Shown here one piece after another: positions 1 to 59,512 of a stretch of 64,000 nucleotides of DNA. The notes below the pieces were generated by a model, which was not told where the DNA came from, searched no databases, and saw only the letters and a list, made by a program, of their open reading frames with translations. This stretch comes from a virus. Its lineage: Duplodnaviria; Heunggongvirae; Uroviricota; Caudoviricetes. Every line of letters starts with the position of its first letter. Position 1 is the stretch's first letter. Both the position numbers and the translations under genes were made by a program. Location: the IMG/VR virus record IMGVR_UViG_3300026966_000012; one strand, 5' to 3'.

Positions 1-422
1 CGGGCTGCTGTAGCCCAGCGCCCTTTCCGCTTTCGCGCGCCGCCCCGCGCCCGCCCTGTCTGGTCCGTCAACTCCGCGAGGTGATAGTAGAGGATCTGAT
101 TAAATGCAGGAATCGTGATGTGAATACAACCCATCTACCCCCACCGCCGTGGGCCCTACTCGGCGACGCCTTCTGACGGCCGTAGCCCCTACCCTCCAGG
201 GTTGGCTCACGGCCCCCCACGCCCCGTGTACCGGGATTCATGCGCCTGTCTACGCCTGTCTCATTTCATACTCTCCGATGATACGACCCCCTCTGTTTCA
301 TCTCCGCGACCCGTCGCGTCAAACCGGCGGTGTATCAGATAGTAGAAACATTTAATATCGTATCACTCCAAGGATAAGATAGGACACCGGTCAAAACCGG
401 TGGCCAACTGGAGTGACCAGAG

Positions 423-881
423 ATGGCAAACGAGACCCAGGCGACTGAGGCACAGCAGACGACCATCGCGGGCGACGTCGACGTCGTCGACCCAACGCAG
501 CACGTCGTGGGCTTCAACGCGAAGACGATGAAGCGCGCGAAGTGGGAGGAGTACGACTTCGTGGTGACGGAGTCCGGCAACGTCGAGGTGCGCAACGCGT
601 CCTACGGGGACGACGCGGACGAGCACACGTACCACGTGGTGACTGACGCCGCGGGCATCCCGAAGTGGTGCCTGCACGCGCTGAGCGACGCGCACGAGGA
701 CGACTGGAAGCCGTGCCCGGCGATGGCCTACCACGCGGCGAAGAAGAACAAGGCGACGGGCCTCGAGACCGACGAGCTCGTGGCGCGGGGCGAGTACAGA
801 GTGTGCAAGCACGCTCTCGCCTACGCGCGCAACGAGGCGATCGTTCAGGCGGTCCGCCGCGTCAAGCAGGGTGACAACTGA
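423..881 (+). CDS. hypothetical protein, first ORF of an early cassette
   Basis: 152-aa ORF with high GC3; preceded by the module hairpin ACCGGTCAAAACCGGT and CTGGAGTGACCAGAG immediately before the ATG. Confidence 0.6.
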   Translation: MANETQATEAQQTTIAGDVDVVDPTQHVVGFNAKTMKRAKWEEYDFVVTESGNVEVRNASYGDDADEHTYHVVTDAAGIPKWCLHALSDAHEDDWKPCPAMAYHAAKKNKATGLETDELVARGEYRVCKHALAYARNEAIVQAVRRVKQGDN

Positions 882-1072
882 TGTCGTGCCCGAATTGCGG
901 CGGGGAGACCGGGCCGAACCCGGTGCGCGACGACCCGCGGACGCCGGCGATGGGCGGGCACGATCCGGGACCGACCGTCGTGTTCTGCTCGGCGGAGTGT
1001 GTCGAAACGTATGACGGCGACCCCGTGCCGGCCACGTGGGGCATCGCTATCAGCAGCCCGGAGGGACAGTGA
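881..1072 (+). CDS. small zinc-ribbon protein
   Basis: 63 aa with CPNCG...CSAEC; ATGA overlap with the upstream gene. Confidence 0.5.
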   Translation: MSCPNCGGETGPNPVRDDPRTPAMGGHDPGPTVVFCSAECVETYDGDPVPATWGIAISSPEGQ

Positions 1073-1299
1073 TGTTCCTGTTGGATGTCTACGCGGACGC
1101 TCACGACGAGTACCCGGTGCGGACGCTCGAGGCGACTGGTGTGGGGACGGCGGTGCTGACGGCGGCCCGGACGGCCGAGTCCCTCGCGGACGAAGCGTGC
1201 CGGCTCCAGGTCGGCGCTGCTGGCGAGGATGAACTGTTCGAGATGTTCCCCGACCCGGGGCATGGGACCGTGGTGGTCCGGGAGGTCGGTCGCCGATGA
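1072..1299 (+). CDS. hypothetical protein
   Basis: Internal ATG of track ORF 1036..1299 (offset confirmed by protein index); GTGATG overlap with the upstream stop. Confidence 0.45.
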   Translation: MFLLDVYADAHDEYPVRTLEATGVGTAVLTAARTAESLADEACRLQVGAAGEDELFEMFPDPGHGTVVVREVGRR

Positions 1300-1490
1300 A
1301 CGACGTCGAGTACGCGCTCTCCTGTGTCGAGATCGTGCACGGCTACCGCGATTACGTTCCGGAGGAGGTGCTGATGGGCGAGCCCGAGGTCGAACGGTTC
1401 GACAGTGCAGTGGCGAAGCTCGAACGCGCGATCGAGATGATCGATCCCGACGACCTCGCAGCCTACCACCAGCAGCGGGAGGCCGAGTGA
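1296..1490 (+). CDS. hypothetical protein
   Basis: 64-aa ORF; ATGA overlap. Confidence 0.45.
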   Translation: MNDVEYALSCVEIVHGYRDYVPEEVLMGEPEVERFDSAVAKLERAIEMIDPDDLAAYHQQREAE

Positions 1491-1669
1491 TGGTGGCCCG
1501 GCCGCGGCGCTGGATGGTGGTGACCGACGCCTGGACTGACGCTGAGTCGCCCGTGTTCCGTCGCATCCGGTCGAAGTTGGAGGCGCACAAGCTGGCACAG
1601 TTAACCGTGCGAGCGTACGACGATGGACGCCCGGTCGATGTCGTGGAGGACCTGAGCGATGAGCGGTAA
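1490..1669 (+). CDS. hypothetical protein
   Basis: Internal ATG (index 87) of track ORF 1229..1669, overlapping the previous stop (TGATG). Confidence 0.4.
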   Translation: MVARPRRWMVVTDAWTDAESPVFRRIRSKLEAHKLAQLTVRAYDDGRPVDVVEDLSDER

Positions 1670-1781
1670 CGTGCGCTGGCGGGGCCAGGAGTTCGGCGAC
1701 GGCCAGTTCATCGTCTGGGAGGGTGACCCGAACACGTCGAAGGCGTACGTGGCCGGGACGCCAGTCCCGAACGAGCCCTGA
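1659..1781 (+). CDS. small hypothetical protein (40 aa)
   Basis: Untracked ORF MSGNVRWRGQEFGDGQFIVWEGDP...; ends exactly at the conserved terminator motif GCTGTTCCGCTTTTGCGCC. Confidence 0.3.
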   Translation: MSGNVRWRGQEFGDGQFIVWEGDPNTSKAYVAGTPVPNEP

Positions 1782-1812
1782 GCTGTTCCGCTTTTGCGCC
1801 GCGCCCCGCCGC
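1781..1812 (+). terminator. conserved cassette terminator motif (T-tract in a GC context)
   Basis: CCGCTTTTGCGCCGCGCCCCGCCG; one of at least 13 copies. Confidence 0.45.
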
Positions 1813-1993
1813 TCGCCGACCCTGTCGTGTTTTCCTGTCGCCCCCTCGCGCGGCGTGGTGCGGCAACCCGGTGCCCTTGCGATGTCTCGGGTTTACCAGC
1901 AGTATCAAGTTATTAACATATCTTTATACTCGCTCCTCTCTTAGGTTAGGATAGGCACTGGGGAAACCCGGTGGCCATCTGGAGTGAAATCGA

Positions 1994-3658
1994 ATGGCAA
2001 GCAGTGACAACGACGTGGAGTACAGCACGGGACAGATCGGCGTCGACGAGGAGCGTATCATCGACGAGCTGATCTTCAGCCAGGCGGAGGGCATCGTCGA
2101 CGGCATCCGCGAGCTGGCGCAAAACGGCGTCGACGCACCCGGCTCGACGAAGGTCGAGATCAACGTGACCCCGGAGCGGACGGTCGTGGTCGACGACGGA
2201 GACGGGATGGACCTGAGCGACGAGTCGGTCCGGGAGTTCCTGACGAACCTGGGCCAGTCGACGAAGATCGACGATGAGGAGACGATTGGCCAGTTCGGCA
2301 TCGGCTTCGGTCAGGCGCTGGCGGTCGGGAAAGTGATAGTGCACAGCCAGGACTCGAAGGTCGAGTTCGACGCGAAGAACTGGTTCCGCGACTACCGGCT
2401 GTACGAGGCCGAGGAGCACTTCGACGGCACGAAAGTGACGATCGAGCACTACGAGGACGAGGTGCCCGAGGCGGGCGCGAGTGAGTGGTCCGACCACCTC
2501 GCCGACATCCGCACCCGGTTCCAGTACATGGAGCTGGTCAAGGGCGTTGAGGTGTGGCTGAACGACGAGCAAGTATCCGGATACGACCCGGCTGAGGACG
2601 ATGAGAACGCCACCGTCTACGACTCGGAACTGGCGTACATGGTCCTGAAGCACGAGAGTTACGACTGGATAACGGTGTACTCGGCGGGCCTGAAAGTCAC
2701 GGACGTCCGCGGCCACGGCATCGGGGGCACCGTGATCACGAAGCGCAACCTCGAGCTGAACACGGCGCGGAACAGCATCCGGTCTGGGTGCGAGGTCTGG
2801 CCCGAGGTCGAGGCCGAGATCGAGGAGGCACGTGTCGAGCTCCTGGACGCCGTCTCTGATTCGAAGCTGACGAACAGTGGTCGCGCGGCCGTGGGCCGCC
2901 TGGCCGCCCAGGGACACGAGGGGTTCGAGGACCGCGAAGTGTTCAAGCTGGCGAACGGTGAGATGACCACCCTCGAGACGATCCAGAGCCGAGACAGCAT
3001 CATGTTCGCTGACCAGACGGACAAGGCCGGGGGCAAGCTGGCTGACCACGGGAAGACCGTCCTGATGCGCAGCGATGGCGCGGTTCAGGCGATTCGGGAA
3101 GCGGTGAACCTCGGTCAGCTGAGCATCCCGGAGACGAAAGACGTCCAGGCGTCGGCGGCCGCGATGGGCATCGCGAACGGCTACGAGATCCTCGAGCCCG
3201 AGGAGTTCCACAGCAAGCCCCTGGCGATGGCCCGCATCCTGCGGGAGAAGATGGAGCAGTACAGCCCCTACGCGCTGGACCGGGAGATCGTGGCCGGAGC
3301 GGATAGCGGGGCCAACGCGTGGACGAAGCCGGACCCGTCGACCCTGAACCCGGTGGAGACGGCGGCGATCGCCGACTCTGAGTTCGAGTCGTTCGTCGCG
3401 ATCACGGACACCGCCTACAGCCAGTTGGCGAGCGAGGTCCTCGTGCTCGAGCTGTGGCGCATCCTGGCTCACGAGTTCGCCCACACGGAGGATTCGACGG
3501 GTGAGCCGTCCCACGGGTCGGGCTTCGCGATGCGCTTCCGCAAGATCCTCGACAAGACCCAGCCGGCGGCCGTCGAGCTCCTGAACGAGATTCGCCAGGA
3601 TGGTGTCACGGCAACGTTCGAGCGATACGACCACGGCGTCCCACACGCCCGCGCCTAA
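1994..3658 (+). CDS. GHKL-family ATPase (HATPase_c) with a C-terminal HExxH motif
   Basis: N-box ELAQNGVDA, G1 VDDGDGM, G2 GQFGIGFGQA; C-terminal ILAHEFAH; hairpin and CTGGAGTGAAATCGA leader before the ATG. Confidence 0.7.
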   Translation: MASSDNDVEYSTGQIGVDEERIIDELIFSQAEGIVDGIRELAQNGVDAPGSTKVEINVTPERTVVVDDGDGMDLSDESVREFLTNLGQSTKIDDEETIGQFGIGFGQALAVGKVIVHSQDSKVEFDAKNWFRDYRLYEAEEHFDGTKVTIEHYEDEVPEAGASEWSDHLADIRTRFQYMELVKGVEVWLNDEQVSGYDPAEDDENATVYDSELAYMVLKHESYDWITVYSAGLKVTDVRGHGIGGTVITKRNLELNTARNSIRSGCEVWPEVEAEIEEARVELLDAVSDSKLTNSGRAAVGRLAAQGHEGFEDREVFKLANGEMTTLETIQSRDSIMFADQTDKAGGKLADHGKTVLMRSDGAVQAIREAVNLGQLSIPETKDVQASAAAMGIANGYEILEPEEFHSKPLAMARILREKMEQYSPYALDREIVAGADSGANAWTKPDPSTLNPVETAAIADSEFESFVAITDTAYSQLASEVLVLELWRILAHEFAHTEDSTGEPSHGSGFAMRFRKILDKTQPAAVELLNEIRQDGVTATFERYDHGVPHARA

Positions 3659-3940
3659 GCGGGCCGTGGCGCGGCAACCCGGCGTCGGACCGGCGTGATG
3701 CTGCGGATCGAATCCGCCCGACGTCCTGGCGGCCTTCGCTACTGTCAAGTGAAGTGACCGCCTACACCCGCCTGGATGGGTCGGAGCCGTTTGTGGTAGG
3801 CTCATAGGCGGTGCGCCCGACCCGTCCCACTCCAGGTGGCCACGGCGTTTGCGATCGGGCTGGCTCCCTCGGGAGCTAAGTGGTCGCGACCGCGGGGTAT
3901 CGCTCCCCGTGTCACCTTTCGTACTGATTGCTCTGATACC

Positions 3941-3977
3941 GTGTACGTACGTACAGACGCGTGTGTACGTACATACA
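3941..3977. repeat. alternating purine/pyrimidine (GTACGTACA) palindromic element
   Basis: gtgtacgtacgtacagacgcgtgtgtacgtacataca; family of 6 copies. Confidence 0.5.
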
Positions 3978-4076
3978 GCCTTTCGGAATCCTGACTTGTC
4001 AGAACCCTTTATTACCGTATCCTGAGAAGGATTACATGGACCTCGAGAAAGCCGAGGCCAGCTGGAGTGACCAGAG

Positions 4077-4388
4077 ATGACAGATACAGCACGACTTGTC
4101 GTGAATGGCTATGTGGAACCGAGCGAGCGAGATACCCGAATTGTGTCGATCCTGGGGAGTCTGGCCGGCGTCCCGGACGGCCACCAGTTCGACTATCGCG
4201 GGATGACGATCGAAAAGCGCGTGACGACCGAGCGAGCGCGGCGCGAACCCGAGATCGCTGTCTACGACCCTGACGGCGAGTACGTCGACCAGTTCCAACC
4301 GCTCCTGTTCTCGTCGTACGAGATCGTGGAGATGCTCGACGAGATGCGAGCCTACTGGGTCGAGGAGAGTCGCGCCACGGCACTGTGA
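4077..4388 (+). CDS. hypothetical protein
   Basis: 103 aa; module leader CCTCGAGAAAGCCGAGG + CCAGCTGGAGTGACCAGAG before the ATG. Confidence 0.55.
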   Translation: MTDTARLVVNGYVEPSERDTRIVSILGSLAGVPDGHQFDYRGMTIEKRVTTERARREPEIAVYDPDGEYVDQFQPLLFSSYEIVEMLDEMRAYWVEESRATAL

Positions 4389-4468
4389 TCGTGGCCGCGA
4401 CAGCGGTCGCAGTCGTGGTCGTCGGCCTGTGGCTGTTCTACGCCCTGGTCGTCTACCTCGAGTTGTGA
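4385..4468 (+). CDS. tiny hydrophobic peptide (27 aa, predicted single TM)
   Basis: GTG start overlapping the upstream stop (GTGA); VIVAATAVAVVVVGLWLFYALVVYLEL. Confidence 0.3.
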   Translation: MIVAATAVAVVVVGLWLFYALVVYLEL

Positions 4469-4486
4469 CCGAAAACTGGTATTTAC
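4469..4486 (+). promoter_or_regulatory. CGAAAACTGGTATWTA promoter motif, copy 1
   Basis: Same motif found upstream of the protease, sheath and TMP genes. Confidence 0.4.
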
Positions 4487-4520
4487 CGCGTGGGGCCTAC
4501 CGTGACATGGAGTACCAGAG

Positions 4521-4841
4521 ATGCCCCGACCGATCGAACGGATGGGTTGTGTTGCCGACCGACTGAGCGACGAGTGGGAGCTCGATGACATCGTGATCGA
4601 GCCGTCGGCGACCGTGACAGCAATCTACCGTCACGTATCCGGGGCGTACGTCATGTGGTCGGCCGACCCGGGACACACGGTACAGTTGTGGGAGGCCGAC
4701 GGATCGGTCGAGACGTGGCTCGATGACGACGAGTTCGCTGACCTGGATTCGGCGACCGAAACTGTCCAGACCTGCGTGGAAGTCATCGAACATGCGACCA
4801 ACCGCGCCCTACCACCAGCAGCGTCGACCCCGCGCCCGTAA
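4521..4841 (+). CDS. hypothetical protein
   Basis: 106-aa ORF, high GC3. Confidence 0.5.
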   Translation: MPRPIERMGCVADRLSDEWELDDIVIEPSATVTAIYRHVSGAYVMWSADPGHTVQLWEADGSVETWLDDDEFADLDSATETVQTCVEVIEHATNRALPPAASTPRP

Positions 4842-5016
4842 CGTTCCGCTTTTCCGCACCGCCTGCGCCAACCTGTCGACTTCCCGATTCAGTCTGACCT
4901 TGCTACGTTGTGTGATTACGGGCAAACACCTCAGATATACATATATTAATATTCACTCCACCCTTAGGTAGAAGTAGGCCAGGAAAACTGGCCCACCCGA
5001 ACGGAGATAGAGAAAG

Positions 5017-5166
5017 ATGCGATACAGAGTCTACGGTACGCACAGTGGCAACGAGTTTCAGGCACCTGTCGACGCAGTCGATGCGAGTGACGCGGTCGAC
5101 GAGTTCCTCGAGTCGGTCGAGGACCCGACCGAGTTCAGCGACGTCGAGGCCGAGGTCTGGGGGTAG
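5017..5166 (+). CDS. small acidic protein (49 aa)
   Basis: Untracked ORF after the module hairpin GGCCAGGAAAACTGGCC + CACCCGAACGGAG. Confidence 0.4.
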   Translation: MRYRVYGTHSGNEFQAPVDAVDASDAVDEFLESVEDPTEFSDVEAEVWG

Positions 5167-5169
5167 CCG

Positions 5170-5340
5170 ATGTCTGGCGAACCCCACACGGGCCCGATCG
5201 ACGCACACGTGTGCGAGCTCGAACCGCTCGATGGCGACGAGTTCGCGACCGTCCACAGCAAGGGCCAGTGCACGATCTGCGGGACCGTGACGACGCCGGC
5301 CCGGGGCGTGAAGAACGCGAAGCGACAGCGGATGTGGTAG
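5170..5340 (+). CDS. small zinc-ribbon-like protein (56 aa)
   Basis: Untracked ORF MSGEPHTGPIDAHVCELEPLDGDEFATVHSKGQCTICG... Confidence 0.35.
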   Translation: MSGEPHTGPIDAHVCELEPLDGDEFATVHSKGQCTICGTVTTPARGVKNAKRQRMW

Positions 5341-5342
5341 CG

Positions 5343-5651
5343 ATGGAGACAGAGAACGTCGCGATCGTCTCGCTGGAGGCGGCTGAAGTTGCCCGACGCG
5401 AGTTGGACATCCTGATTGAACAGACTGGCGGCCCGAACGCCGGGATCGATGAGTCGTGCTCGCCGATGGCCCTCGCGCGCCAACGCATCGAGCGCCTGGA
5501 AGGCGAAGGGATAGACCCGTTCACCGTGGCGACTGTGCTGCAAGTCATGTACGGCGTCGCGGAGGAGCGTGGTGTCGAGATCAGTAGCGCCGACCCGTTG
5601 CAGGACGACGTCTTCCGGGCACGAAGCGAGTTCGAGTCGGATCTCGAGTAG
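5343..5651 (+). CDS. hypothetical protein
   Basis: Internal ATG (METENVAIV) of track ORF 5211..5651, directly after the upstream stop. Confidence 0.45.
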   Translation: METENVAIVSLEAAEVARRELDILIEQTGGPNAGIDESCSPMALARQRIERLEGEGIDPFTVATVLQVMYGVAEERGVEISSADPLQDDVFRARSEFESDLE

Positions 5652-6059
5652 TCTCGACCCTGCTGCGGTTTGCATCGTTCCTGGTGGTAGTGAGCGGTTC
5701 GATTCCGTGACGATGCCTGGCCCCCGAGCCCTCAGACGATACGTTGATAGGTTCGCGGGGCCTATGCTCACGCGGCATCCGTTAGTGATGCCGTTCCGTT
5801 CGGGTGGGATAGCACGCGTCGGGCTGTCTCGGCAAGGGCAACCACGTCAGTCGAGATCAGAGGCTCGTGCAAACCCGTTGCCCGGGGCATTTGTCCCCGG
5901 GCGCCCTTTGGTACCGCCTCGAGCGAGAGCTCTTGTTCTCTGACATCGCGTATCCGCGCCCGAGCGCGCAAACCCGGTGTGATCATGCTACGATCCTGTT
6001 CTATCAGCAATATTATCTGACAAAGATATTATTATATCAGCTCCAGCCTAAGGTAAAGT

Positions 6060-6200
6060 ATGGCACGAAAAAGCCACTCGAGCGGAGATAGCGTGAACAA
6101 GCAGCGGTACCGCGGCAACGAGTCGACCGCCGACTTCGACCTGGGCGACGCACTGAGCCAGATCTCGGAGAGCCGCGAGGAGGACGAGGACGATGAGTGA
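6060..6200 (+). CDS. small acidic protein (46 aa), N-terminus MARKSHSSGD
   Basis: ATG inside the module hairpin TGGCACGAAAAAGCCA + CTCGAGCGGAG; untracked. Confidence 0.45.
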   Translation: MARKSHSSGDSVNKQRYRGNESTADFDLGDALSQISESREEDEDDE

Positions 6201-6402
6201 GCGCATGCACCGGGAGCCGAGCAAGTTCTCGGCTGACGAACTGTCAATCGGCGACGAGATCGTGGTCGCTGGCCTCGTCCACGAGGTCATGTCGGTGGGA
6301 GAGCCCGGGAAGCAGTGCCTCGTGCGGACGGACCGGGGCGCGTTCTCGAAAGACGGCCTGAGTAGCGGGATCGACGACGGCTCCGTGGAGGTGCGCGACT
6401 GA
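6193..6402 (+). CDS. hypothetical protein
   Basis: 69 aa; ATGAGTGA overlap. Confidence 0.45.
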   Translation: MSERMHREPSKFSADELSIGDEIVVAGLVHEVMSVGEPGKQCLVRTDRGAFSKDGLSSGIDDGSVEVRD

Positions 6403-6602
6403 TGCCGATGGCATGGGGCCTCGACGAGTCGTGCCCAGACTGTGGCGAGGACGAACTGATCTGGTGGACGAAAGACGAGACTGAACGTGTCGACGAGGTG
6501 AAGGTGGACTGCACCGCCTGCGGGATGGCGTTCCCGAAGGAGATCGTCGAGAAGACTGACGACACTCCTCGCGAGGAGATTGCACGGGGGATCGTCGCAT
6601 GA
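6402..6602 (+). CDS. zinc-ribbon protein
   Basis: CPDCG...CTACG. Confidence 0.5.
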   Translation: MPMAWGLDESCPDCGEDELIWWTKDETERVDEVKVDCTACGMAFPKEIVEKTDDTPREEIARGIVA

Positions 6603-7225
6603 GCTTCGAGTTCGACGAGGACTACGAGCTCGATGCGATGTTCGAGGGCGCGACCGAGTTCGACCCCGAGTACCAGCGCGAGCGGATGCGCGAACAGCTG
6701 GAGATCGCGGCCTGGGACATCCGTGAGGGACACGTCGAGGACGGCGAGACTTGGACGATCGAGGAGCCCAGCGTGCTGACGCCGGACCCGCTCGACGACA
6801 CCGACTTCGAATGGACGCTGCGCTTCGACGACATCGACGTGCTCGGTGACGAGAGTGTTCCCGGTGTGTTCGAAGTGATGGACCCGGAGGGAGAGTACGC
6901 CGGTCAGTTCGGTGCGTACGAGGATGGCGAGGAGCTGTTGAACGCGCTGGGCCACATCGCCCAGACGTTCCACCGCGACCGGGAGATCGCGAAGTTCCAC
7001 GCCCGCGTCGACGAGATGGAGCCCGGCGACAGTCACCTGCTCCCGAGTGGGAAGATCGAGCTGCGCGATGCCGAGAAGGCCGCGATCTTCGGCCCGGGTT
7101 ACGAGGAGCGGGTCGTGACCAACGCCGACAAAGTGACGCCGAAACTCGTCAAGCGCGTCGAGGGCGACTGGCGGGCTGAGATGCGCGAGAAGTACCGCGG
7201 GACCCCGATGGAGGAGGAGTTCTGA
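6599..7225 (+). CDS. hypothetical acidic protein
   Basis: 208 aa, high GC3. Confidence 0.55.
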   Translation: MSFEFDEDYELDAMFEGATEFDPEYQRERMREQLEIAAWDIREGHVEDGETWTIEEPSVLTPDPLDDTDFEWTLRFDDIDVLGDESVPGVFEVMDPEGEYAGQFGAYEDGEELLNALGHIAQTFHRDREIAKFHARVDEMEPGDSHLLPSGKIELRDAEKAAIFGPGYEERVVTNADKVTPKLVKRVEGDWRAEMREKYRGTPMEEEF

Positions 7226-7399
7226 ATGACCTACGAGATTCCGGCCAACGCAAGTGACAGAGACGAACGTATCGCCGAGCGGATGAACGAGATGCTGTTC
7301 AACGAGTTCGACATCCCGCTCGATGATTTCGAGATCCTGAGTGAAGAAGCAGGCTCGTTCGAGATCACGATCGAACCAGGTGTCGGGACGGTGGACTGA
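7226..7399 (+). CDS. small hypothetical protein (57 aa)
   Basis: Untracked; starts 1 nt after the upstream stop. Confidence 0.35.
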   Translation: MTYEIPANASDRDERIAERMNEMLFNEFDIPLDDFEILSEEAGSFEITIEPGVGTVD

Positions 7400-7539
7400 T
7401 GGGCGTCCCCGTGGGTGAGGCTGATGGTGAGTTCGCTGTGGAGCTGACGTGCGTCGCCTGTGAGGGCACGTTCGAGACCGATGAGACGATGCCCAACGAT
7501 TGCCCCGAGTGTGGGCGGCTGAGCTACACCGCGGCCTGA
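7399..7539 (+). CDS. small zinc-ribbon protein (46 aa)
   Basis: CVACEG...CPECG; followed by terminator motif CCGCTTTTGCGCACCGCCCCGTCG. Confidence 0.4.
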   Translation: MGVPVGEADGEFAVELTCVACEGTFETDETMPNDCPECGRLSYTAA

Positions 7540-7607
7540 CCGCGCTCCGCTTTTGCGCACCGCCCCGTCGAATGAGTTATCAGTTTTGCGGTAGTATCGC
7601 CGAATAG

Positions 7608-8120
7608 ATGAGTGACGATCGCAAGCCGTGGGAGAACCCCGTGACGCTGGCGCGGGCCTACGCCGAGTACGGCTCGGCTGAAGGCGTCGCTGACGCCTGG
7701 GGCTGTTCCGAACGGACGATCCGAACGTGGCTGCACGAGCACGACGAGATCCGCGTCAAGCGACAGGGTCGACGGCCGAGCTGGGAAGACACCGAGCCCC
7801 CGAACCACGTCCTCGAAGACGACGAGGGCTACGAGATCGTCGAGGCGTTCGTTCCCGTCCGCGACGACCGTGGCGAGCTCGTGAAGATCGAACGCAAAGC
7901 CGTCCGCATGCACCGGCTGATGTGTGTCCTCGAGTGGGGGTTCGACGCCGTCTGCGACATGGAAGTGCATCACCAGGATGGAATGAAGTTGCATAACTTG
8001 CCGCGGAACCTGGTGCCGCTCGATCACCTGACGCACGCGAACATGCAGACGCATCGGCGCTGGCGGATGCCCTGGGTCGGTGACTACGAACAGGGCGACC
8101 CCGGCCCAGTGGACGCGTAG
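7608..8120 (+). CDS. HNH endonuclease with an N-terminal HTH
   Basis: HTH segment GCSERTIRTWL; HNH core EVHHQDG...NLVPLDHLTHANM. Confidence 0.65.
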   Translation: MSDDRKPWENPVTLARAYAEYGSAEGVADAWGCSERTIRTWLHEHDEIRVKRQGRRPSWEDTEPPNHVLEDDEGYEIVEAFVPVRDDRGELVKIERKAVRMHRLMCVLEWGFDAVCDMEVHHQDGMKLHNLPRNLVPLDHLTHANMQTHRRWRMPWVGDYEQGDPGPVDA

Positions 8121-8135
8121 TGGGTTACGTCTGGT

Positions 8136-8282
8136 GCGTATCCCACGTGTCGCGCGCGTTTCACGGGTCGCGTATCCCGCGCGCGTTATCCCAGGTGCGT
8201 ATCCCGGGCCCTCGTTCTCGTGTACAGCGTATCCCTTGTGAGAGCACGCGAGAGCCCTCTCCCCCAGTAGAGATACGCACCC
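8136..8282. repeat. iteron-like cluster: 5 direct GCGTATCCC repeats plus 1 inverted copy
   Basis: Copies near 8136, 8170, 8183 (GCGTTATCCC), 8197 and 8227; inverted GGGTGCGTATC near 8272. Confidence 0.55.
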
Positions 8283-8391
8283 TTCGCATATCAATCGAGT
8301 TACGTAAGCAGCTATTGCCGATTCGGCGCCCCAGCGCGGCAACCCGGTGATTGCCAACCCCTAATCTATGACTCATGTTGATAAAGAAACA

Positions 8392-8399
8392 CTTAATAT
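8392..8399 (+). promoter_or_regulatory. TATA box of a cassette promoter
   Basis: acttaatatc lies about 26 nt upstream of the ATG at 8422. Confidence 0.45.
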
Positions 8400-8421
8400 C
8401 CCTCCACTCTTAGGTTAAGAT

Positions 8422-8583
8422 ATGGGACAAAAATCCCAACTCGGGCGGAACGAGGTACAGAGCGTCAAAATTGAAACGCAGGGCTCCCATGCTACGCTCT
8501 CACACATCGAGGGCGTGTGGATCGAGGATGGAGAGCTGGTCATCCGCACCCTCGAGGACTTGCCAATTCACGGAGAAATCTGA
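8422..8583 (+). CDS. small protein (53 aa), N-terminus MGQKSQLGRNE
   Basis: ATG embedded in hairpin TGGGACAAAAATCCCA; untracked frame (track ORF 8471..8809 is a different frame). Confidence 0.4.
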   Translation: MGQKSQLGRNEVQSVKIETQGSHATLSHIEGVWIEDGELVIRTLEDLPIHGEI

Positions 8584-8734
8584 GGCACGTCCTCCCACGG
8601 GACGCGCCCCCATGTCAAGCCTTCGTCCACGCGCAGCGGAGAGTGGCGGCGCCGACGGCTCGCCCTCGCGGGCCCGAGCGCGGCAAACCGGCACCATGCG
8701 ACGCCCGCGGAATCCCCGCAGTATCAGCCGTCTT

Positions 8735-8748
8735 ACATATATTAAATA
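8735..8748 (+). promoter_or_regulatory. TATA box of a cassette promoter
   Basis: acatatattaaata, about 27 nt before the ATG at 8772. Confidence 0.45.
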
Positions 8749-8771
8749 CCCTACCCTGAGTAGGAAGAAGT

Positions 8772-9107
8772 ATGGGACAAAAATCCCACCCCCGACCGGA
8801 GCAGTGTGAAGTGCCAGGGTACTACTGGACCGCCCCCGAAGTCGTCGAGTGCTGGCGCGACCCCGAGGACGTGCTGATCGCGTGGGACGACGGTGTGTAC
8901 GTGCTGTGTGTCGGCGAGCCGGCCGAGCATGCGAGTGAGTCAGGGCGACCGCTGTGGTACGCGCCCGAAGTGCGAGTGCACGACGTGTTCGTCGACGGCG
9001 AGCGATTCGAGCTGATCGAGCGCGACGACGAGCGCCTGCGCAACGTGCGGGAAGTGAGAGTGACGCACGGGACTGCAAGCGCCGTCGCCGAGCTCGAGTC
9101 AGCGTGA
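8772..9107 (+). CDS. hypothetical protein, N-terminus MGQKSHPRPE
   Basis: ATG inside hairpin TGGGACAAAAATCCCA followed by CCCCGACCGGAG. Confidence 0.55.
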   Translation: MGQKSHPRPEQCEVPGYYWTAPEVVECWRDPEDVLIAWDDGVYVLCVGEPAEHASESGRPLWYAPEVRVHDVFVDGERFELIERDDERLRNVREVRVTHGTASAVAELESA

Positions 9108-9187
9108 TCGTCGCCGTCGTCGCGCTGCTGGTGGTGCTGATAGGGCTCGCCGTGTTCTGGGCTGTCGTGCGGGCGATGGCGTCGTAG
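9104..9187 (+). CDS. tiny hydrophobic peptide (27 aa)
   Basis: GTGA overlap; VIVAVVALLVVLIGLAVFWAVVRAMAS. Confidence 0.3.
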   Translation: MIVAVVALLVVLIGLAVFWAVVRAMAS

Positions 9188-9336
9188 GGCCCTGTCGCGT
9201 GCCGCTTTCCCGCCGCGCCCCGTCGACCGCCGTCTGTCGTTTCCCCTCCGTCCACTCCGTCACCTCCGCGCGCCGCGTCACTGAAACCCGGTGTCCATGC
9301 CACGATCCGTACCCGACGACAATATCAGCCGATTAA

Positions 9337-9349
9337 CATATCTATATAC
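9337..9349 (+). promoter_or_regulatory. TATA box of a cassette promoter
   Basis: catatctatatac. Confidence 0.45.
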
Positions 9350-9371
9350 TTGCCCCAGACGAAGGTTAAGT

Positions 9372-9575
9372 ATGGCACGAAAATGCCTCCCGGACGGGTA
9401 CAGCTGGACAGTCGACGGTGAAGACGCGCAGACGACCGAGATCTACGTCGAGAACGCAGAGGGTGAGCTGATCGGCAAAGACCACGTGGCGTCGCAGTTC
9501 GTGCGAACCGACGCCGAGCGCGAGGAAGTTGCGGCGCAGATCGCCGCGGGTGAGCGGGGGCGTCAGTTCCAGTAG
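9372..9575 (+). CDS. hypothetical protein, N-terminus MARKCLPDG
   Basis: ATG inside hairpin TGGCACGAAAATGCC; internal ATG (index 27) of track ORF 9291..9575. Confidence 0.5.
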   Translation: MARKCLPDGYSWTVDGEDAQTTEIYVENAEGELIGKDHVASQFVRTDAEREEVAAQIAAGERGRQFQ

Positions 9576-9689
9576 AGCGGCGCCGACTGTCGGTTTTACG
9601 CCGTGCCCCGTCGACCATGCGACGTTCAGCGGAAGTCGACAATATCAGCTGTCATACATATATTCATATTCGCTCCCGACCAAGATAAG

Positions 9690-9806: not shown

Positions 9807-9833
9807 CGGGGCCGCCGCGGCCCCCTCGCCGAC

Positions 9834-10353: not shown

Positions 10354-10394
10354 ACGGGGCTGACGCCCGGTTTCGCGCGCCGCCCCGCCGCCCG

Positions 10395-10700
10395 ACGACC
10401 CCTGTTTCCACTCCGTCTGGTCCAACGCGGAATAGTAGAGGAAATTATTATTTGCAGAGATCGAGCCCTGAATACAACCCGCCTCAGCGAGGTTCATGGG
10501 CGCTACACGTCGGCGAGTTTTGTGAGGCATGGCTCCTACCCCTTCGAGTTGGCTCACGGCATTCCGAGCGTCGTGTGGACGGTGTCTCCGCGAGGTTCGT
10601 GGGCATCTCAGGAAATGCCCCCTGATGATACGAGAACCCCTGTTTCCCTTCCGCGTGCCGCGTCACGCGAATCCGGCACGCGCCATGCGACGTCGACGTC
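10395..10700. ncRNA. copy B of a conserved roughly 250-300 nt non-coding element (candidate ncRNA or regulatory repeat)
   Basis: Aligns with 1..335 and 14085..14335; core CTCCTACCC..GCTCACGGC, GCRTCTCAGG, CCCCTGTTTCC. Confidence 0.35.
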
Positions 10701-10724
10701 CATCCAGCAGTAACAGCCGTCTTA

Positions 10725-10737
10725 CATATCTATATAC
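10725..10737 (+). promoter_or_regulatory. TATA box of a cassette promoter
   Basis: catatctatatac. Confidence 0.45.
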
Positions 10738-10760
10738 CTGCACCACTCTTAGGATAAGAT

Positions 10761-11138: not shown

Positions 11139-11504
11139 CGCCGACCAGCGCACTACCACCAGCAGCGGCTGGCCTGCGCACCGGTTTTCCGCCGTGCCCC
11201 GTCGCCCACGTGACCCTCGTTTCCGCTCCGCCCGCGACTGTCTCGTGCGATCGTCGCGCCCTGCTTGCGTACGTGTCCCCCCACTGTTACGCTCGTCACG
11301 CCTGCGTTCGCGGCCTGTGCTATCCGCGTCCGACCCCTGTTTCATCTCCGCGTGCCAAGGCGCGGCAACCCGGTGGCGTCCCCGTCAGCAAACGGGCCCT
11401 TTCTGCAAGCAATCCGACACTGAAATCTATAAAACGCTGTCTCAAGCCCTCTACACGAGGATTTAGACCAGAACCTTTATATCAAATCAAGTTCAAGAAG
11501 AAGT

Positions 11505-11744: not shown

Positions 11745-11746
11745 AG

Positions 11747-14006: not shown

Positions 14007-14084
14007 CCCCGCCTCGCGATTGTGGCCAGTGTCGGTTTTGCGCCGTGCCCCGCCGACCCCTGCTTCCGGTCCAACGACGCTGTC

Positions 14085-14335
14085 CAGCGGATTGAGCCGA
14101 CTGTGCGCCCGCATCTGACTGTCTCCGGAGGGTCCAAGGGCGTCTCACGTCGGCGTGTTTCTGACGCTGTGACTCCTACCCTGTAGGGCCTGCTCACGGC
14201 GTTTTGACGCCTGTGCGGACACTGTCTCCCGGCGTTCTGTGAGCGTCTCAGGCTGTCGCTTGCCGTGATGTCGTACGCATGTCATGACCCCTGTTTCCAC
14301 TCCGCGCCACGTCGCGTCAAACCAGCAGTATCAGC
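14085..14335. ncRNA. copy C of the conserved non-coding element
   Basis: cacgtcggcgtgtttctgacg..ctcctaccctgtagggcctgctcacggc..gcgtctcagg..cccctgtttccactccgcg. Confidence 0.35.
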
Positions 14336-14342
14336 CGCCAAA

Positions 14343-14355
14343 CATATCTATATAC
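14343..14355 (+). promoter_or_regulatory. TATA box of a cassette promoter
   Basis: catatctatatac. Confidence 0.45.
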
Positions 14356-14378
14356 TTGTACCCTGAGAAGCATAAGAT

Positions 14379-15330: not shown

Positions 15331-15421
15331 ACAGCAAACGGGCCTGTTCTGTGGACCGTTCCGTCCTGTTTTCGCGGATTCGGGCGTCTCAGGCCGTCTA
15401 CGCGCGGAATGGTGTGGGAAA

Positions 15422-16120: not shown

Positions 16121-16305
16121 GCCGACCCCGAACCCCGATTCGCCCGACCGGCTGCACTACCACCAGCAGCGACCGGCTCAGCCGACAAAAAACGGGCCCA
16201 CATCACGACGGTTTTCACGCGCGGAATCCAAAACGAACGCCTCAGGGCTCCTACGCGCGGAATGTGACCAGAAACTATATACCTGTCAAAGTACAAGTAT
16301 GTAAT

Positions 16306-20246: not shown

Positions 20247-20633
20247 ATGTCAGGTATGAGTTTCGAAAAGTACCAGGGGTCGAGCCGTGGTCGGAAAACG
20301 ATCAGTCACCCATGTGTTAAAATCTGGTCGTCCGGTAAGATCGCCTTCAACGACGTGGCTGTCGAGGAGTGGCTGGATAATGCAGAGTACGTCGGGATCT
20401 GGACGCACAGTGAGATTCCACAGGTGGCCATCGCTCCGTCGACGAAGTCAAACTCGGGTCTCCCACACGTCTATGCGCTCCATACGCAGGGGACGTACAA
20501 CGGCAAGCTCCTCCAGGTACGCAAGTTGCTCCGCGATTTCGGATGTTCCCGACCGGACGAATCTCTCGAGCTCGACGCCTGGTACGACGACGATCGGGAG
20601 ATGATGGTTGTCGACCTGGACCCACTGACGTGA
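20247..20633 (+). CDS. hypothetical protein
   Basis: 128 aa. Confidence 0.5.
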   Translation: MSGMSFEKYQGSSRGRKTISHPCVKIWSSGKIAFNDVAVEEWLDNAEYVGIWTHSEIPQVAIAPSTKSNSGLPHVYALHTQGTYNGKLLQVRKLLRDFGCSRPDESLELDAWYDDDREMMVVDLDPLT

Positions 20634-20685
20634 CCCCCACCCCCGGGACACCGATATAGCCTGTCCGAGCGGTGAGCCCTATTGG

Positions 20686-31066: not shown

Positions 31067-31562
31067 AAAGGGTAGAGAGTCTGAAAGGGATTAGGTAGGA
31101 AAGTTTTCATTCCGACGTGTGCCGACCCTGTTTCCAGACCGTAACCCCCCACCTCTCGGGCCTGTAAACCACTCTCCACGCAATCCGGCCGAAAAGGCCC
31201 TCTAAACCGCACTCTCAGAGCTTCTATCCTTTGAATATGCCATGTCTGAGCGACATTCTGGGTATCCAGACTGGTTTCCCCTCACCAACCACTCATGTCC
31301 GATACCGCAGGATAACCACCCTGACACTCGTACCACCAGGAACGAAGGCCCGTATTCCTTCAAGATATACAGAGACAAGCAGAGTGGAATCGATAGACTG
31401 CACTGACCTCCACGCATATACGAAAAACGACAGAACAGAAATCTTTAATATCACATCCCACATATTTCTATTCACCCACAGCTACCCAGTGGGACGTGCT
31501 CCCCGAGTGCGTAGAACGGAGATATACATGAAGGAATGGCGACAGAAGTGGAGGAATAGTCT

Positions 31563-51831: not shown

Positions 51832-52431
51832 TTAGAGCAGGTTGTCGACGACAGTTAGTGTTCGGGTGGTGAGTTCGTCGAGCCCACGATTGTTTTGTAC
51901 GACGGCGTCTGCACGCTGGAAGTAGTCCCTGACCCCCGCATCGTGCTCGCGATCGGTCCGTTCGCGCAAATATCGAGCACTGTCGATGGGGTCCTCGCCC
52001 CCTTTCCCCCTACCCTCACGGGTTGCAAACCACCTAACACGGTCGCCGAAGGTCGCGTCGACCCACACAACGTGTGCCTCAATGTCTAACTCGGCCGCGA
52101 GGTAGTCAACTTCGGCGGGATTCCGGGTCCCTTCCAGGACAACGACATCGGACTCGTCGAGATGCTCGCGGATGGGGCCGGTGCAGGGAACGGCCACTCC
52201 ATACTCACCATGCTCCTCTCTGAGAGCTTCGGCGTAGGCCCACACTTCATCCTCGTCGCTCGACTCCATGGCTTCTCTGAGCGTCTCACCCATGCTCACG
52301 ACTGGAAACCCCTGTTCTCCCAGGAGTTGAGCGGCTGTGCTTTTCCCACTTGCCGGATATCCCGCGAGTGCTATGATAGTCATCATGATATGTAATATAT
52401 CCCGAAACAAGAACATTGCGCTCACTACCAC
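51832..52431 (-). CDS. P-loop nucleotide kinase (adenylate/dNMP kinase-like); only minus-strand gene
   Basis: Walker A AGYPASGKST; start probably at MMTII (52386). Confidence 0.6.
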   Translation of the reverse strand: MVVSAMFLFRDILHIMMTIIALAGYPASGKSTAAQLLGEQGFPVVSMGETLREAMESSDEDEVWAYAEALREEHGEYGVAVPCTGPIREHLDESDVVVLEGTRNPAEVDYLAAELDIEAHVVWVDATFGDRVRWFATREGRGKGGEDPIDSARYLRERTDREHDAGVRDYFQRADAVVQNNRGLDELTTRTLTVVDNLL

Positions 52432-59360: not shown

Positions 59361-59512
59361 TAGACGCCCGCCGACCCACTTATCGGGCCACAACCCCCAC
59401 CTCTCGGGCCTGCAAACCCTCCTCCGGGAGCGTACGAATGGCCATGTATTCTCACTCTCTACTTTTGAGAGGTCTTCGAAGAATACGTGGACGTTGGCGA
59501 CCCAGAACATTA

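What the first reader, a model, noticed from the sequence alone, without database searches (positions are those of the whole stretch)
1..335. Family of 250-300 nt conserved non-coding elements (copies at 1..335, 10395..10700, 14085..14335; shorter relatives at about 15335..15420 and 16190..16285)
Three long copies align over about 200 nt with conserved blocks interrupted by variable spacers. The blocks include CACGTCGGCG.GTTTTCTGACG, CTCCTACCCtNNagggNNNGCTCACGGC (an internal small palindrome, for example CCCTGTAGGG), GCRTCTCAGG, and CCCCTGTTTCCACTCCGCG. Copies A and B also share an upstream AT-rich box (ATAGTAGAGGAnnTnATTAnnTGCAG ... GAATACAACCC) that looks like its own promoter. No ORF with coding-like GC3 spans them; track ORF 149..355 falls inside copy A. 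This pattern fits a small structured ncRNA gene family or a repeated cis-regulatory or recombination element.
Basis: seen in the sequence. Interest (0 to 1): 0.7.

Follow-up and report, generated by a model that had tools for sequence, protein, structure and literature searches.

The report
Modular intergenic control repeats of a halovirus
The three 250-300 nt repeats are real, conserved and non-coding, but they look like extended control regions between transcription units of a large haloarchaeal tailed virus (extra promoter plus a strand-specific 60-nt signal), not genes for a folded small RNA.

Summary
Three intergenic regions (14-422, 10354-10760, 14007-14378) share a ~210-nt module at 65-72% identity. 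The same three copies sit at syntenic positions in a related 155-kb metagenomic virus, and one copy sits in a 149-kb Halobaculum plasmid-prophage.

No reading frame is conserved. There is no Rfam hit and no conserved RNA fold. The proposed small palindrome is not conserved.

The AT-rich box of copies A and B aligns in register with one class of gene-proximal promoters of the same genome, so it is probably a second, upstream promoter.

The central ~60 nt ("L-core", ..CCATGACCCCTACCCTCnACGGGCTGCAAAC..) belongs to a wider family. It has 19 significant copies, all on the + strand. Nearly all lie in intergenic DNA, and outside the long modules they lie 17-130 nt after a stop codon, including late-gene boundaries at 31131 and 59380.

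Best reading: these are long versions of composite intergenic boundary and control regions. They are analogous to HF2 intergenic repeats, the HGTV-1 TATA-plus-inverted-repeat motif and T4 PeSLs, and gene cassettes reassort around them. The molecular function of the L-core is unknown. A small unstructured RNA made from the upstream promoter cannot be excluded.

The parts
14..422 (+). Intergenic region holding copy A. Sub-parts: T-run box 27-47; degenerate PTF motif ~49-66; upstream promoter box P_up 84-132 (ATAGTAGAGG..ATTAAAT..GAATACAACCC); L module 121-330; PTF motif 289-305; proximal promoter ATAGTAGAAACATTTAATAT 339-358; 5' hairpin 385-402; SD-like GGAGTGA; ATG at 423.
   Evidence: window 1-13 is the end of the upstream gene
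121..330 (+). L module, copy A (L-core at 172-234)
   Evidence: nhmmer hits; orthologue at L004 8197-8408
10354..10760 (+). Intergenic region holding copy B. Sub-parts: T-run box 10367-10390; PTF 10398-10414; P_up 10432-10480; L module 10469-10679; PTF 10636-10652; CAGCAGTAACAGCCG 10705-10719; TATA ~10727-10740; start-codon hairpin 10761-10779.
10469..10679 (+). L module, copy B (L-core at 10519-10581)
   Evidence: orthologue at L004 17188-17402
14007..14378 (+). Intergenic region holding copy C. It has no upstream promoter box. Sub-parts: T-run box 14032-14055; PTF 14056-14072; L module 14111-14328; PTF 14287-14303; CAGCAGTATCAGCCG 14323-14337; TATA ~14345-14358; start-codon hairpin 14380-14397.
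14111..14328 (+). L module, copy C (L-core at 14159-14221)
   Evidence: orthologue at L004 19702-19911
11139..11504 (+). Intergenic region with a decayed fourth copy. Two PTF motifs (11213-11229 and 11333-11349) bracket a degenerate core. The orthologous L004 17974-18031 still scores as an L-core (E = 2e-7).
31131..31191 (+). Stand-alone L-core, 106 nt after the stop of ORF 30699-31025 and upstream of the SPFH gene at 31563
59380..59436 (+). Stand-alone L-core, 20 nt after the stop of gene 58743-59360 and upstream of the sheath-like gene at 59561
   Evidence: (weak hit)
20620..20680 (+). Weaker L-core that overlaps the last codons and stop of gene 20247-20633. Its orthologue in the relative scores E = 6e-7.
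51993..52050 (+). L-core-like sequence inside the minus-strand nucleotide-kinase-like gene 51835-52386. The Halobaculum orthologue scores E = 3.5e-7.
15369..15410 (+). 'Shorter relative' 1: CGCGGATTCGGGCGTCTCAGGCCGTCTACGCGCGGAATGG, ~10 nt upstream of the TATA region. It shares a 19-mer with the 3' part of the Halobaculum L module.
16238..16266 (+). 'Shorter relative' 2: CGCCTCAGGGCTCCTACGCGCGGAATGTG. It shares only this short piece.

Best explanation
The three elements are the longest versions of a modular, non-coding intergenic control region. These regions separate the short, same-strand transcription units in the gene-cassette-rich part of a ~150-kb haloarchaeal myovirus or plasmid-prophage.

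Reading 5' to 3', each long region contains:
1. A conserved T-run box directly after the upstream stop codon (CCGsTTTTsCGCCGyGCCCCGyCG). This is probably the terminator.
2. A PTF motif (CGACCCCTGTTTCC), which is itself the 5' half of the L-core.
3. In copies A and B only, a complete extra promoter unit. It has a purine-rich BRE-like stretch, a TATA-like box, and about 24 nt later the invariant GAATACAAC, followed by a small hairpin with a CUCA loop.
4. The ~60-nt C-rich, unstructured L-core.
5. A second PTF motif and a GC hairpin followed by CAACCCGG.
6. The gene-proximal TATA promoter and a hairpin at the 5' end of the transcript.

Proposed mechanism (inferred, not shown):
- The L-core is a strand-specific cis signal read at operon boundaries. 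It would be read either on the nascent + strand RNA or on the DNA, by a viral or host factor. Its role would be termination or insulation, RNA 3'-end processing, or regulator docking.
- In A and B the upstream promoter gives the conserved downstream gene a second, long-leader transcript that must pass through that signal.
- The shared modules also provide homology for recombination that reassorts gene cassettes.

Shown here: conservation and purifying selection, restriction to intergenic DNA and one strand, absence of a conserved ORF or RNA fold, promoter-class similarity, and cassette mosaicism.
For: Conservation:
- All three copies are kept at syntenic positions in a relative with ~77% nucleotide identity (L004). 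One copy is in Halobaculum halophilum plasmid unnamed3 (L020 28712-28906, E = 2e-25).
- 48 of 201 ungapped columns are invariant in six copies.
- Orthologous copies are 66-74% identical, whereas fourfold-degenerate sites of three of the four flanking genes compared are only 54-61% identical.

Not a gene product:
- Stop codons occur in every frame in some copies.
- There is no Rfam hit and no consensus fold.

The L-core family:
- An iterated profile search finds 19 copies with E < 1e-3, all on the + strand. Shuffled and reversed controls give none.
- In the annotated Halobaculum record, 7 of 9 copies are fully intergenic. Stand-alone copies lie 17-128 nt after a stop codon.
- The window copies at 31131 and 59380 lie 106 and 20 nt after stop codons.
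- PTF motifs occur 7 times against 0.58 expected, all on the + strand, in pairs that bracket the L modules.

The upstream promoter:
- The P_up box aligns in register with the proximal promoters of units that have a gene at the right distance (ATAGTAGA / ATAATAGA + TATA).

Cassette reassortment:
- Gene content between conserved backbone genes differs, and gene order changes, among the three genomes.
- The L module sits in front of different genes in different genomes: g10761 in the window and L004, but the g9690 orthologue in Halobaculum.

Precedents:
- HF2 intergenic repeats carry promoters (PMC8707807).
[quoted passage not shown] I saw this motif directly.
Against: - There are no transcript data, so neither promoter activity of P_up nor any termination or processing at the L-core is shown.
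- The L-core is not followed by a consistent T-run, so it is not a canonical archaeal intrinsic terminator.
- Hairpins ahead of the T-run box are only weakly better than shuffles (mean z = -0.76).
- Only three independent genomes carry the element, so conservation statistics rest on few lineages.
- One core lies inside a minus-strand gene, which a pure boundary-signal model does not predict.
- Orthologues are no more alike than paralogues. This could reflect gene conversion rather than selection.
Confidence: 0.55

Rival explanations
1. Small non-coding RNA genes. In copies A and B the upstream promoter drives a short RNA, somewhere between ~50 and 200 nt. The RNA starts at GAATACAAC, begins with the CUCA-loop hairpin and contains the C-rich core. 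It would act by binding a protein or by base-pairing, for example with the minus-strand kinase-like mRNA that contains a complementary core. It would not act through a conserved fold.
For: - A complete promoter-like unit is conserved in wA, wB, L4A and the Halobaculum copy.
- A small 5' hairpin with partly compensatory stems follows the predicted start. In wB this is seen in the fold; the stems of the other copies were read by eye from the sequences.
- The core is ~25-50 nt complementary to a coding segment of gene 51835-52386.
- The family is strictly strand-specific.
Against: - Copies C in both genomes, and all stand-alone cores, lack the promoter box yet are conserved equally well.
- There is no conserved terminator after the module. 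The T-run after the second block is absent in wA and L4C.
- There is no conserved secondary structure and no Rfam family.
Confidence: 0.2
2. Arrays of DNA binding sites (iterons) for a replication initiator, partition protein or global regulator. On this reading the modules are origins or protein-loading regions.
For: - The conserved blocks of the module resemble one another (..G(Y)CTCA(S)(S)G..) and recur at fixed offsets of ~14, 35, 84, 116 and 138 nt in all six copies.
- GTCTC is about 12-fold enriched in the modules and occurs there only on the + strand.
- The PTF motif resembles the reverse complement of haloarchaeal ORB elements (GGAAACAG(T)GGGGT; PMC3528665).
- An AT-rich box is adjacent.
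Against: - Internal repetition is significant in only 3 of 6 copies (p = 0.005-0.02).
- In most family members the 'site 4' block reads GCAAAC, not CTCAC.
- All PTF motifs are direct repeats on one strand, not inverted pairs around an unwinding element.
- No Orc1/Cdc6 was found among the proteins scanned.
- Cumulative GC skew shows no inflection at these sites.
- The module is ~65% G+C.
Confidence: 0.07
3. Functionally neutral repeats. On this reading they are leftovers of past duplications and recombination between intergenic regions (empty promoter-terminator cassettes), kept similar by gene conversion.
For: - Paralogues within a genome are as similar as orthologues.
- Three columns are genome-diagnostic, against at most 1 for any other 3:3 split.
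- Modules are mosaic between genomes, for example the 19-mer shared between window 15369 and the Halobaculum copy.
- A decayed copy exists at 11139-11504.
Against: - 24% of columns are invariant across six copies from two genomes whose synonymous sites are near saturation.
- The core family is maintained at many boundaries in three genomes and only in one orientation.
Confidence: 0.1
4. A conserved small protein is encoded in the module.
For: One frame (..NTTRLSE.H.RYTS.SF.RH.SYP..) is open for 50-80 codons in wB, L4A, L4B and the Halobaculum copy (the Halobaculum frame was read by eye from the sequence).
Against: - That frame has a stop after 18 codons in wA.
- It is shifted in both C copies.
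- It lacks a start codon in wB, L4B and Halobaculum (CTG or GCG at that position).
- wB versus Halobaculum shows about as many non-synonymous as synonymous changes.
- No frame is open in all copies.
Confidence: 0.02

Closest known systems
Intergenic repeats (IRs, class I and II) of halovirus HF2 and other Haloferacalesvirus (Russ, Pfeiffer & Dyall-Smith 2021, PMC8707807)
   Same: Both are repeated sequences confined to intergenic regions of a haloarchaeal myovirus. Both are built from conserved blocks separated by variable positions, contain AT-rich TATA-type motifs, keep their position among related viruses, and lie at the 5' ends of transcription units.
   Different: HF2 IRs are 29-58 bp, whereas these modules are ~210 nt within 370-420 nt intergenic regions. 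There is no sequence similarity: the HF2 beta and gamma motifs are not above chance in the window, and the virus is unrelated at DNA level. Most of the conserved sequence here (the L-core) is G+C-rich and lies far upstream of the gene promoter. It also occurs alone after stop codons.
HGTV-1 conserved motif (TATA-like box plus inverted repeat) preceding ORFs (Sencilo et al. 2013, as summarised in PMC3950731)
   Same: The genome type is the same: a ~145-150 kb haloarchaeal myovirus or plasmid-prophage with ~30 tRNA genes in the Halobaculum relative. Many small ORFs are each preceded by a TATA box plus a hairpin. The window has at least 14 such TATA-plus-hairpin units, and HGTV-1 has TATA + CTCCTCGTGGCACGAGGAG + a second TATA.
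   Different: The sequences are unrelated. Neither the L module nor the L-core has any match in the ~99 kb of HGTV-1 that was scanned. The terminase is only 24.6% identical. The HGTV-1 motif corresponds to the promoter-plus-hairpin parts here, not to the L module itself.
PeSLs (promoter-early stem-loops) of T4-type phages (Arbiol et al. 2010, PMC2839356; Comeau et al. 2014, PMC4122927)
   Same: Both are composite terminator/promoter repeats between small, poorly conserved ORFs in hyperplastic regions of large myoviruses. In both, gene cassettes flanked by the repeats differ between close relatives.
   Different: PeSLs are bacterial sigma-70 early promoters with an upstream terminator stem-loop, and they are short. 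Here the promoters are archaeal TATA/BRE type, the hairpin lies downstream of the TATA box, and there is an additional long unstructured module. Recombination at the repeats is inferred here from mosaicism, not demonstrated.

Membership tests
HF2-type intergenic repeats (Haloferacalesvirus IRs) | Repeated sequence found only in intergenic regions, conserved in position among related viruses | tested here: met
   Full L modules occur only in intergenic regions. Orthologous copies are at syntenic positions in L004.
HF2-type intergenic repeats (Haloferacalesvirus IRs) | Sequence motifs alpha/beta/gamma (e.g. TCTTTAAGTC, CGTCTNNTAGAG) | tested here: not met
   The motifs are not above chance and are not in the intergenic regions of interest. 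There is no DNA similarity to any phage record.
HF2-type intergenic repeats (Haloferacalesvirus IRs) | Demonstrated promoter activity and a mapped transcription start inside the repeat | not testable with these tools
   Only a sequence argument is available: the P_up box aligns in register with gene-proximal promoters.
PeSL / HGTV-1 PeSL-like regulatory cassettes | Composite promoter plus stem-loop motif repeated in front of many small ORFs | tested here: met
   17 candidate TATA-plus-hairpin units were found on the + strand of the window, 15 of them in the first 16 kb, and 0 on the - strand with the same search. 11 were found in L004. Stems covary.
PeSL / HGTV-1 PeSL-like regulatory cassettes | Insertions, deletions and replacements of gene cassettes between close relatives have the repeats at their borders | tested here: inconclusive
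   Gene content and order differ strongly between backbone genes in three genomes. The L module precedes different genes in different genomes. Exact breakpoints were not mapped.
PeSL / HGTV-1 PeSL-like regulatory cassettes | Sequence homology to the T4 or HGTV-1 motifs | tested here: not met
   There is no L or L-core hit in HGTV-1 loci L023 and L024, and the intergenic sequences are visibly different. This is an analogy, not homology.
Structured non-coding RNA family | Match to a described family | tested here: not met
   Rfam 15 gives 0 matches at gathering thresholds for the whole window and 0 at E <= 1 for 1-17500.
Structured non-coding RNA family | Conserved secondary structure supported by compensatory changes | tested here: not met
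   The RNAalifold consensus is -5.1 kcal/mol for six modules and there are 0 pairs for 24 cores. The candidate hairpin is 61.5% paired, with 38 of 500 shuffles at least as good. MFE z-scores are +0.75, -2.10 and -1.10.
Archaeal replication origin (ORB elements plus unwinding element next to orc1/cdc6) | [quoted passage not shown] | tested here: not met
   The ORB-like PTF motif occurs 7 times, all in direct orientation on the + strand. The only AT-rich stretch is the ~25-nt promoter box.
Archaeal replication origin (ORB elements plus unwinding element next to orc1/cdc6) | Adjacent orc1/cdc6 initiator gene | tested here: not met
   Neighbouring genes have no Orc/Cdc6 or AAA+ initiator domains. 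Not every ORF of the window was scanned.
Protein-coding gene | Reading frame open and conserved in all copies | tested here: not met
   Six-frame translations of six copies show stops or frame shifts in every frame in at least one copy.

The most novel reading that the evidence does not exclude
The ~60-nt L-core (..TCTTCGrGCCATGACCCCTACCCTCnACGGGCTGCAAAC..CCTTCCrCG) is a new kind of archaeal-virus transcription signal. It would be defined by sequence, independent of hairpins and strand-specific, and it would mark operon boundaries. A dedicated viral or host factor would read it on the nascent RNA, as a termination, antitermination or RNA-processing site. In its promoter-equipped versions (copies A and B) it would be released as a small RNA able to pair with the complementary segment of the minus-strand kinase-like mRNA. 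That would add a layer of temporal control in large haloarchaeal myoviruses that has no described counterpart.
Probability: 0.15. Interest if true: 0.65.

Novelty: new variant of a known kind. Interest (0 to 1): 0.42.

Why it matters
Gene regulation in archaeal tailed viruses is almost unmapped. Only the HF2 intergenic repeats have been tested experimentally.

This locus gives a richer and clearly ordered set of intergenic signals:
- a T-run box after the stop codon
- the PTF motif
- an optional extra promoter
- the L-core
- the gene-proximal promoter
- a hairpin at the 5' end of the transcript

One of these, the L-core, recurs at early-gene and late-gene boundaries in three genomes and has no known function.

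One carrier of the system is a plasmid of a cultured strain, Halobaculum halophilum Gai3-2. The predictions can therefore be tested directly with dRNA-seq, Term-seq and reporter assays.

The system also extends the idea of regulatory cassettes as recombination joints (T4 PeSLs, HGTV-1) to a further archaeal virus lineage.

Tried and rejected
- **Exact-pattern scans of IMG/VR.** Scans for the CCTACCC..GCTCACGGC core and for the T-run box returned only unrelated chance matches.
- **Collection scans for relatives.** Protein-guided scans of viral and metagenome contigs found one independent relative, which several records represent (L004 = L013 = L014 = L015). The genome-contig scan gave only unrelated bacterial hits. 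L016 and L017 are the window itself.
- **More distant relatives through the HATPase protein.** The homologues lie in unrelated integrated elements or in lower-G+C contigs, with no profile hit. One of them (L029) shows only a divergent core-like CTATGACTCCCACCACTCG.
- **ORB / replication-origin idea for the PTF motif.** Rejected because all copies are direct repeats on one strand.
- **Iteron idea.** Internal repetition of ..CTCA.. blocks is only weakly supported. It is weakened further because one block reads GCAAAC in most family members.
- **Stop codon at a fixed place in CATGACCCC.** This is trivial. The position is T-purine-purine, and three of the four such triplets are stop codons (alignment).
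- **Cores as pseudogene debris of the minus-strand kinase-like gene.** tblastn gives no hit at other cores.
- **T-run box as a hairpin terminator.** The upstream folds are only marginally better than shuffles.
- **The sigma-70 / intrinsic-terminator scan.** It is not suited to archaea and gave nothing usable.
- **A coding frame (NTTRLSE..).** Considered and rejected.
- **HGTV-1.** Scanned with no L or L-core match.

Full report
**What the window is.** The window encodes a T4-type large terminase (24193-25836), ribonucleotide reductase, ThyX, DpdA and a sheath-like DUF3383 protein. Its G+C content is 55-67%, and almost all genes are on the + strand. It has no close relative among deposited phage genomes. 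Its terminase is 24.6% identical to that of HGTV-1.

Two relatives were found:
- A metagenomic contig of 88.7 kb (IMG/VR), also held as a 154.8-kb ENA contig. It has ~77% nucleotide identity and is syntenic (L004, L013 and L014).
- The 148,857-bp circular 'plasmid unnamed3' of Halobaculum halophilum Gai3-2. It carries terminase, tape-measure, baseplate, PolB and ParA/ParB genes and about 31 tRNA genes.

The window is therefore part of a ~150-kb haloarchaeal myovirus or plasmid-prophage. Its general type resembles HGTV-1, but it belongs to a different lineage.

**Checking the observation.** The first 17 kb consist of short operons separated by intergenic regions of 100-420 nt. Every quoted block is at the stated place. 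Pairwise identity of the ~210-nt shared module is 65-72%, and blastn of copy B against copy A gives E = 5e-11.

A profile built from the copies finds exactly three full copies in the window: 121-330, 10469-10679 and 14111-14328. It finds three at the corresponding positions of L004. It finds one in the Halobaculum plasmid (L020 28712-28906, E = 2e-25). It finds none in the 8 kb upstream of the window (L025).

Some details need correction:
- Window 1-13 is the end of an upstream gene, so copy A is a normal intergenic region.
- A decayed fourth copy lies in 11139-11504.
- The two 'shorter relatives' share only a short piece and are not detected by the profile. One of them has a 19-nt identity with the 3' part of the Halobaculum module.

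**Not coding and not a folded RNA.** Six-frame translation of the six copies shows stops or frame shifts in every frame in at least one copy. One frame is open in four copies. It lacks a start codon in three of them, is broken in wA, and is shifted in both C copies.

The evidence against a conserved fold is as follows:
- Rfam has no match at gathering thresholds or at E <= 1.
- The RNAalifold consensus of the six modules is -5.1 kcal/mol.
That is no better than shuffled partners.
- MFE z-scores are +0.75, -2.10 and -1.10.

**The elements are under constraint.** Fourfold-degenerate sites in three of four flanking orthologous genes are only 54-61% identical. The orthologous modules are 66-74% identical, and 48 of 201 ungapped columns are invariant in all six copies.

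Orthologues are no more similar than paralogues. Three columns separate all window copies from all L004 copies. This fits either saturation outside the constrained positions or some concerted evolution.

**Anatomy.** The intergenic regions are mosaics of a limited set of modules in a fixed order:
- A T-run box lies just after the stop codon (CCGsTTTTsCGCCGyGCCCCGyCG, at least 11 copies).
- The PTF motif ACCCCTGTTTCCnCTCC occurs 7 times against 0.58 expected. All copies are on the + strand, in pairs that bracket the L modules.
- A GC hairpin is followed by GCGGCAACCCGGTG (10 copies against 0.84 expected).
- CAGCAGTATCAGCCG plus a TATA box follows.
- About 24-28 nt further on there is a 5-7 bp hairpin with an A-rich loop.

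The hairpin is found at 15 sites in the first 16 kb of the window and at 11 sites in L004. The same search on the minus strand of the window finds none, and the stems covary. In most units the hairpin contains the ATG. As a result, otherwise unrelated first-gene products all begin M-G/E-x-K-x-P/H.

**The AT-rich box.** The box of copies A and B is also conserved in L4A and in the Halobaculum copy. It is degenerate in L4B and absent in both C copies. It aligns in register with the gene-proximal promoters of several units (ATAGTAGA / ATAATAGA, then a TATA-like box). This places the invariant GAATACAAC where those promoters have their initiator region. It is therefore very probably a second, upstream promoter. 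Because the C copies lack it, it is not integral to the repeat family.

**A wider family.** The central ~60 nt of the module, which I call the L-core, has the consensus GnCGACnnnnTCTTCGrGCCATGACCCCTACCCTCnACGGGCTGCAAACnnCCTTCCrCG.

Weak profile hits in the Halobaculum record led to late-region intergenic sequences with an obviously related core. An iterated profile search of 235 kb (the window, the metagenomic relative and the Halobaculum plasmid) then gave 19 hits with E < 1e-3, all on the + strand. Thirteen of these were the seed sequences. Five locally shuffled databases and a reversed database gave none.

Besides the copies inside L modules, stand-alone cores lie at:
- window 31131, which is 106 nt after a stop codon and upstream of the SPFH gene;
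- window 59380, which is 20 nt after a stop codon and upstream of the sheath-like gene;
- eight places in the Halobaculum record. Six of these are fully intergenic and lie 17-128 nt after a stop codon. One overlaps the 3' end of a gene, and one lies inside a minus-strand gene.

The PTF motif is the 5' half of this core, and the 3' end of the T-run box runs directly into it. Twenty-four cores give no consensus secondary structure at all. The core is therefore a linear, C-rich, orientation-specific sequence signal at operon boundaries.

One core-like copy lies inside the only minus-strand gene of its region, a nucleotide-kinase-like P-loop protein (window 51835-52386). The cores are not fragments of that gene. 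I could not explain this.

**Cassette mosaicism.** Between a backbone of conserved genes, the three genomes differ in which small genes are present and in their order. The L module precedes g10761 in the window and in L004, but precedes the orthologue of g9690 in Halobaculum, which lacks g10761. The modules thus reassort relative to the genes.

**Interpretation.** The best-supported reading is that the three elements are extended versions of composite intergenic boundary and control regions. Each combines a probable terminator, an optional extra promoter, the L-core, the gene promoter and a 5' hairpin. They would act in cis on transcription and serve as homology for cassette shuffling.

The steps that are shown: conservation and constraint, restriction to intergenic DNA and one strand, no conserved ORF or fold, promoter-class similarity, and mosaicism.

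The steps that are inferred: promoter activity of the AT box, the T-run box as a terminator (upstream hairpins are only marginal), and a transcription-coupled role for the L-core.

A small, unstructured RNA made from the upstream promoter in copies A and B remains possible (about 0.2). An iteron or origin reading is weak: the repeats are direct and on one strand, no initiator gene was found, internal repetition is only marginal, and GC skew shows no inflection.

**Comparison with known systems.**
- The HF2 intergenic repeats are promoter-bearing repeats of 29-58 bp (PMC8707807). The logic is the same, but there is no sequence relationship, and they are much shorter.
[quoted passage not shown] I saw this motif in the HGTV-1 sequence. 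It corresponds to the promoter-plus-hairpin parts here. The L and L-core profiles have no match in HGTV-1.
- T4 PeSLs are composite terminator/promoter motifs that mediate modular shuffling (PMC4122927). They are a functional analogy only.

The finding is thus a new variant of a known kind of feature. Its one component with no counterpart that I could find is the L-core.

Noticed in passing
window 385-402, 1956-1973, 4041-4057, 4977-4993, 8423-8438, 8773-8788, 9691-9707, 9993-10009, 12408-12423, 12998-13013, 13440-13455, 14380-14397, 15455-15471 (also 6061-6077, 10762-10779, 11506-11522, 16307-16323 by eye); 11 more in L004: Every early transcription unit has a 5-7 bp hairpin with an A-rich loop about 24-28 nt downstream of its TATA box, followed by (A/C)CCCGAnCGGAG or GCCAnCTGGAGTGA. 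The stems covary (tggga/tccca, caccggt/accggtg, cctcg/cgagg, ggaac/gttcc and others). In most units the ATG lies in the 5' arm, so unrelated first-gene products all begin M-G/E-x-K-x-P/H. In four units the same hairpin sits in a 5' UTR. The same search on the minus strand finds none. This probably corresponds to the HGTV-1 'TATA + inverted repeat' motif in kind, though not in sequence.
   Followed up: partly
window, 27 sites, e.g. 11151-11167, 16155-16171, 22013-22029 (exact), 4807, 24122, 27677, 47635, 52423, 56367, 62269: The 17-mer CACTACCACCAGCAGCG occurs 27 times at <=3 mismatches against 0.10 expected. It is on both strands (15 +, 12 -) and in both coding and intergenic DNA. A related CTCACTCATGCCACCACCAGCG is found in Halobaculum intergenic regions. 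Its function is unknown.
   Followed up: no
window 3938-3980, 9831-9873, 16082-16124, 24133-24175, 31027-31069, 51787-51829: A palindromic element of alternating purines and pyrimidines (..GTGTGTACGTACATACGCGC..ATATGTACGTAC..). By eye several copies lie shortly after a stop codon, but positions relative to genes were not checked for all six (family D9). It is also present in the Halobaculum plasmid. It may be a hairpin terminator or Z-DNA-prone DNA.
   Followed up: no
window 20676-20716 (also GGTTCGATTCC-containing stretches in IGR 5652-6059): Right after the L-core at the end of gene 20247-20633 lies GCCCTATTGGTACGGCGAGTCGGTTCGATTCCGACCAGGGC. This looks like a tRNA-like acceptor/T-arm minihelix with a perfect 5-bp T stem and a TTCGATT loop. 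The orthologous place in the relative has the same feature. ARAGORN finds no tRNA in the window. It could be an RNA-processing 't-element' or an att-like tRNA fragment.
   Followed up: partly
window 51993-52050, within minus-strand gene 51835-52386; L021 24524-24584: An L-core-like sequence on the + strand lies inside a minus-strand nucleotide-kinase-like gene (AAA_18). Its reverse complement there encodes W-F-A-T-R-E-G-R-G. Plus-strand RNAs that carry L-cores would be ~25-50 nt complementary to this mRNA. Other cores are not fragments of this gene.
   Followed up: partly
L020, L021, L022 (NZ_CP058532.1, Halobaculum halophilum Gai3-2 plasmid unnamed3): This 148.9-kb circular 'plasmid' is a complete myovirus-like genome. 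It has terminase, head-tail adaptor, tape measure, baseplate J, PolB, helicase, RNR and ThyX genes, plus ParA/ParB and about 31 tRNA genes. It is syntenic with the window, so it is a plasmid-prophage relative that can be grown in culture.
   Followed up: partly
window 3659-4076 and 5652-6059: Two further long intergenic regions (418 and 408 nt) lie inside blastn alignments to L004 whose overall identity, coding flanks included, is ~78%. They are unrelated to the L module, have no Rfam hit, and their function is unknown.
   Followed up: no
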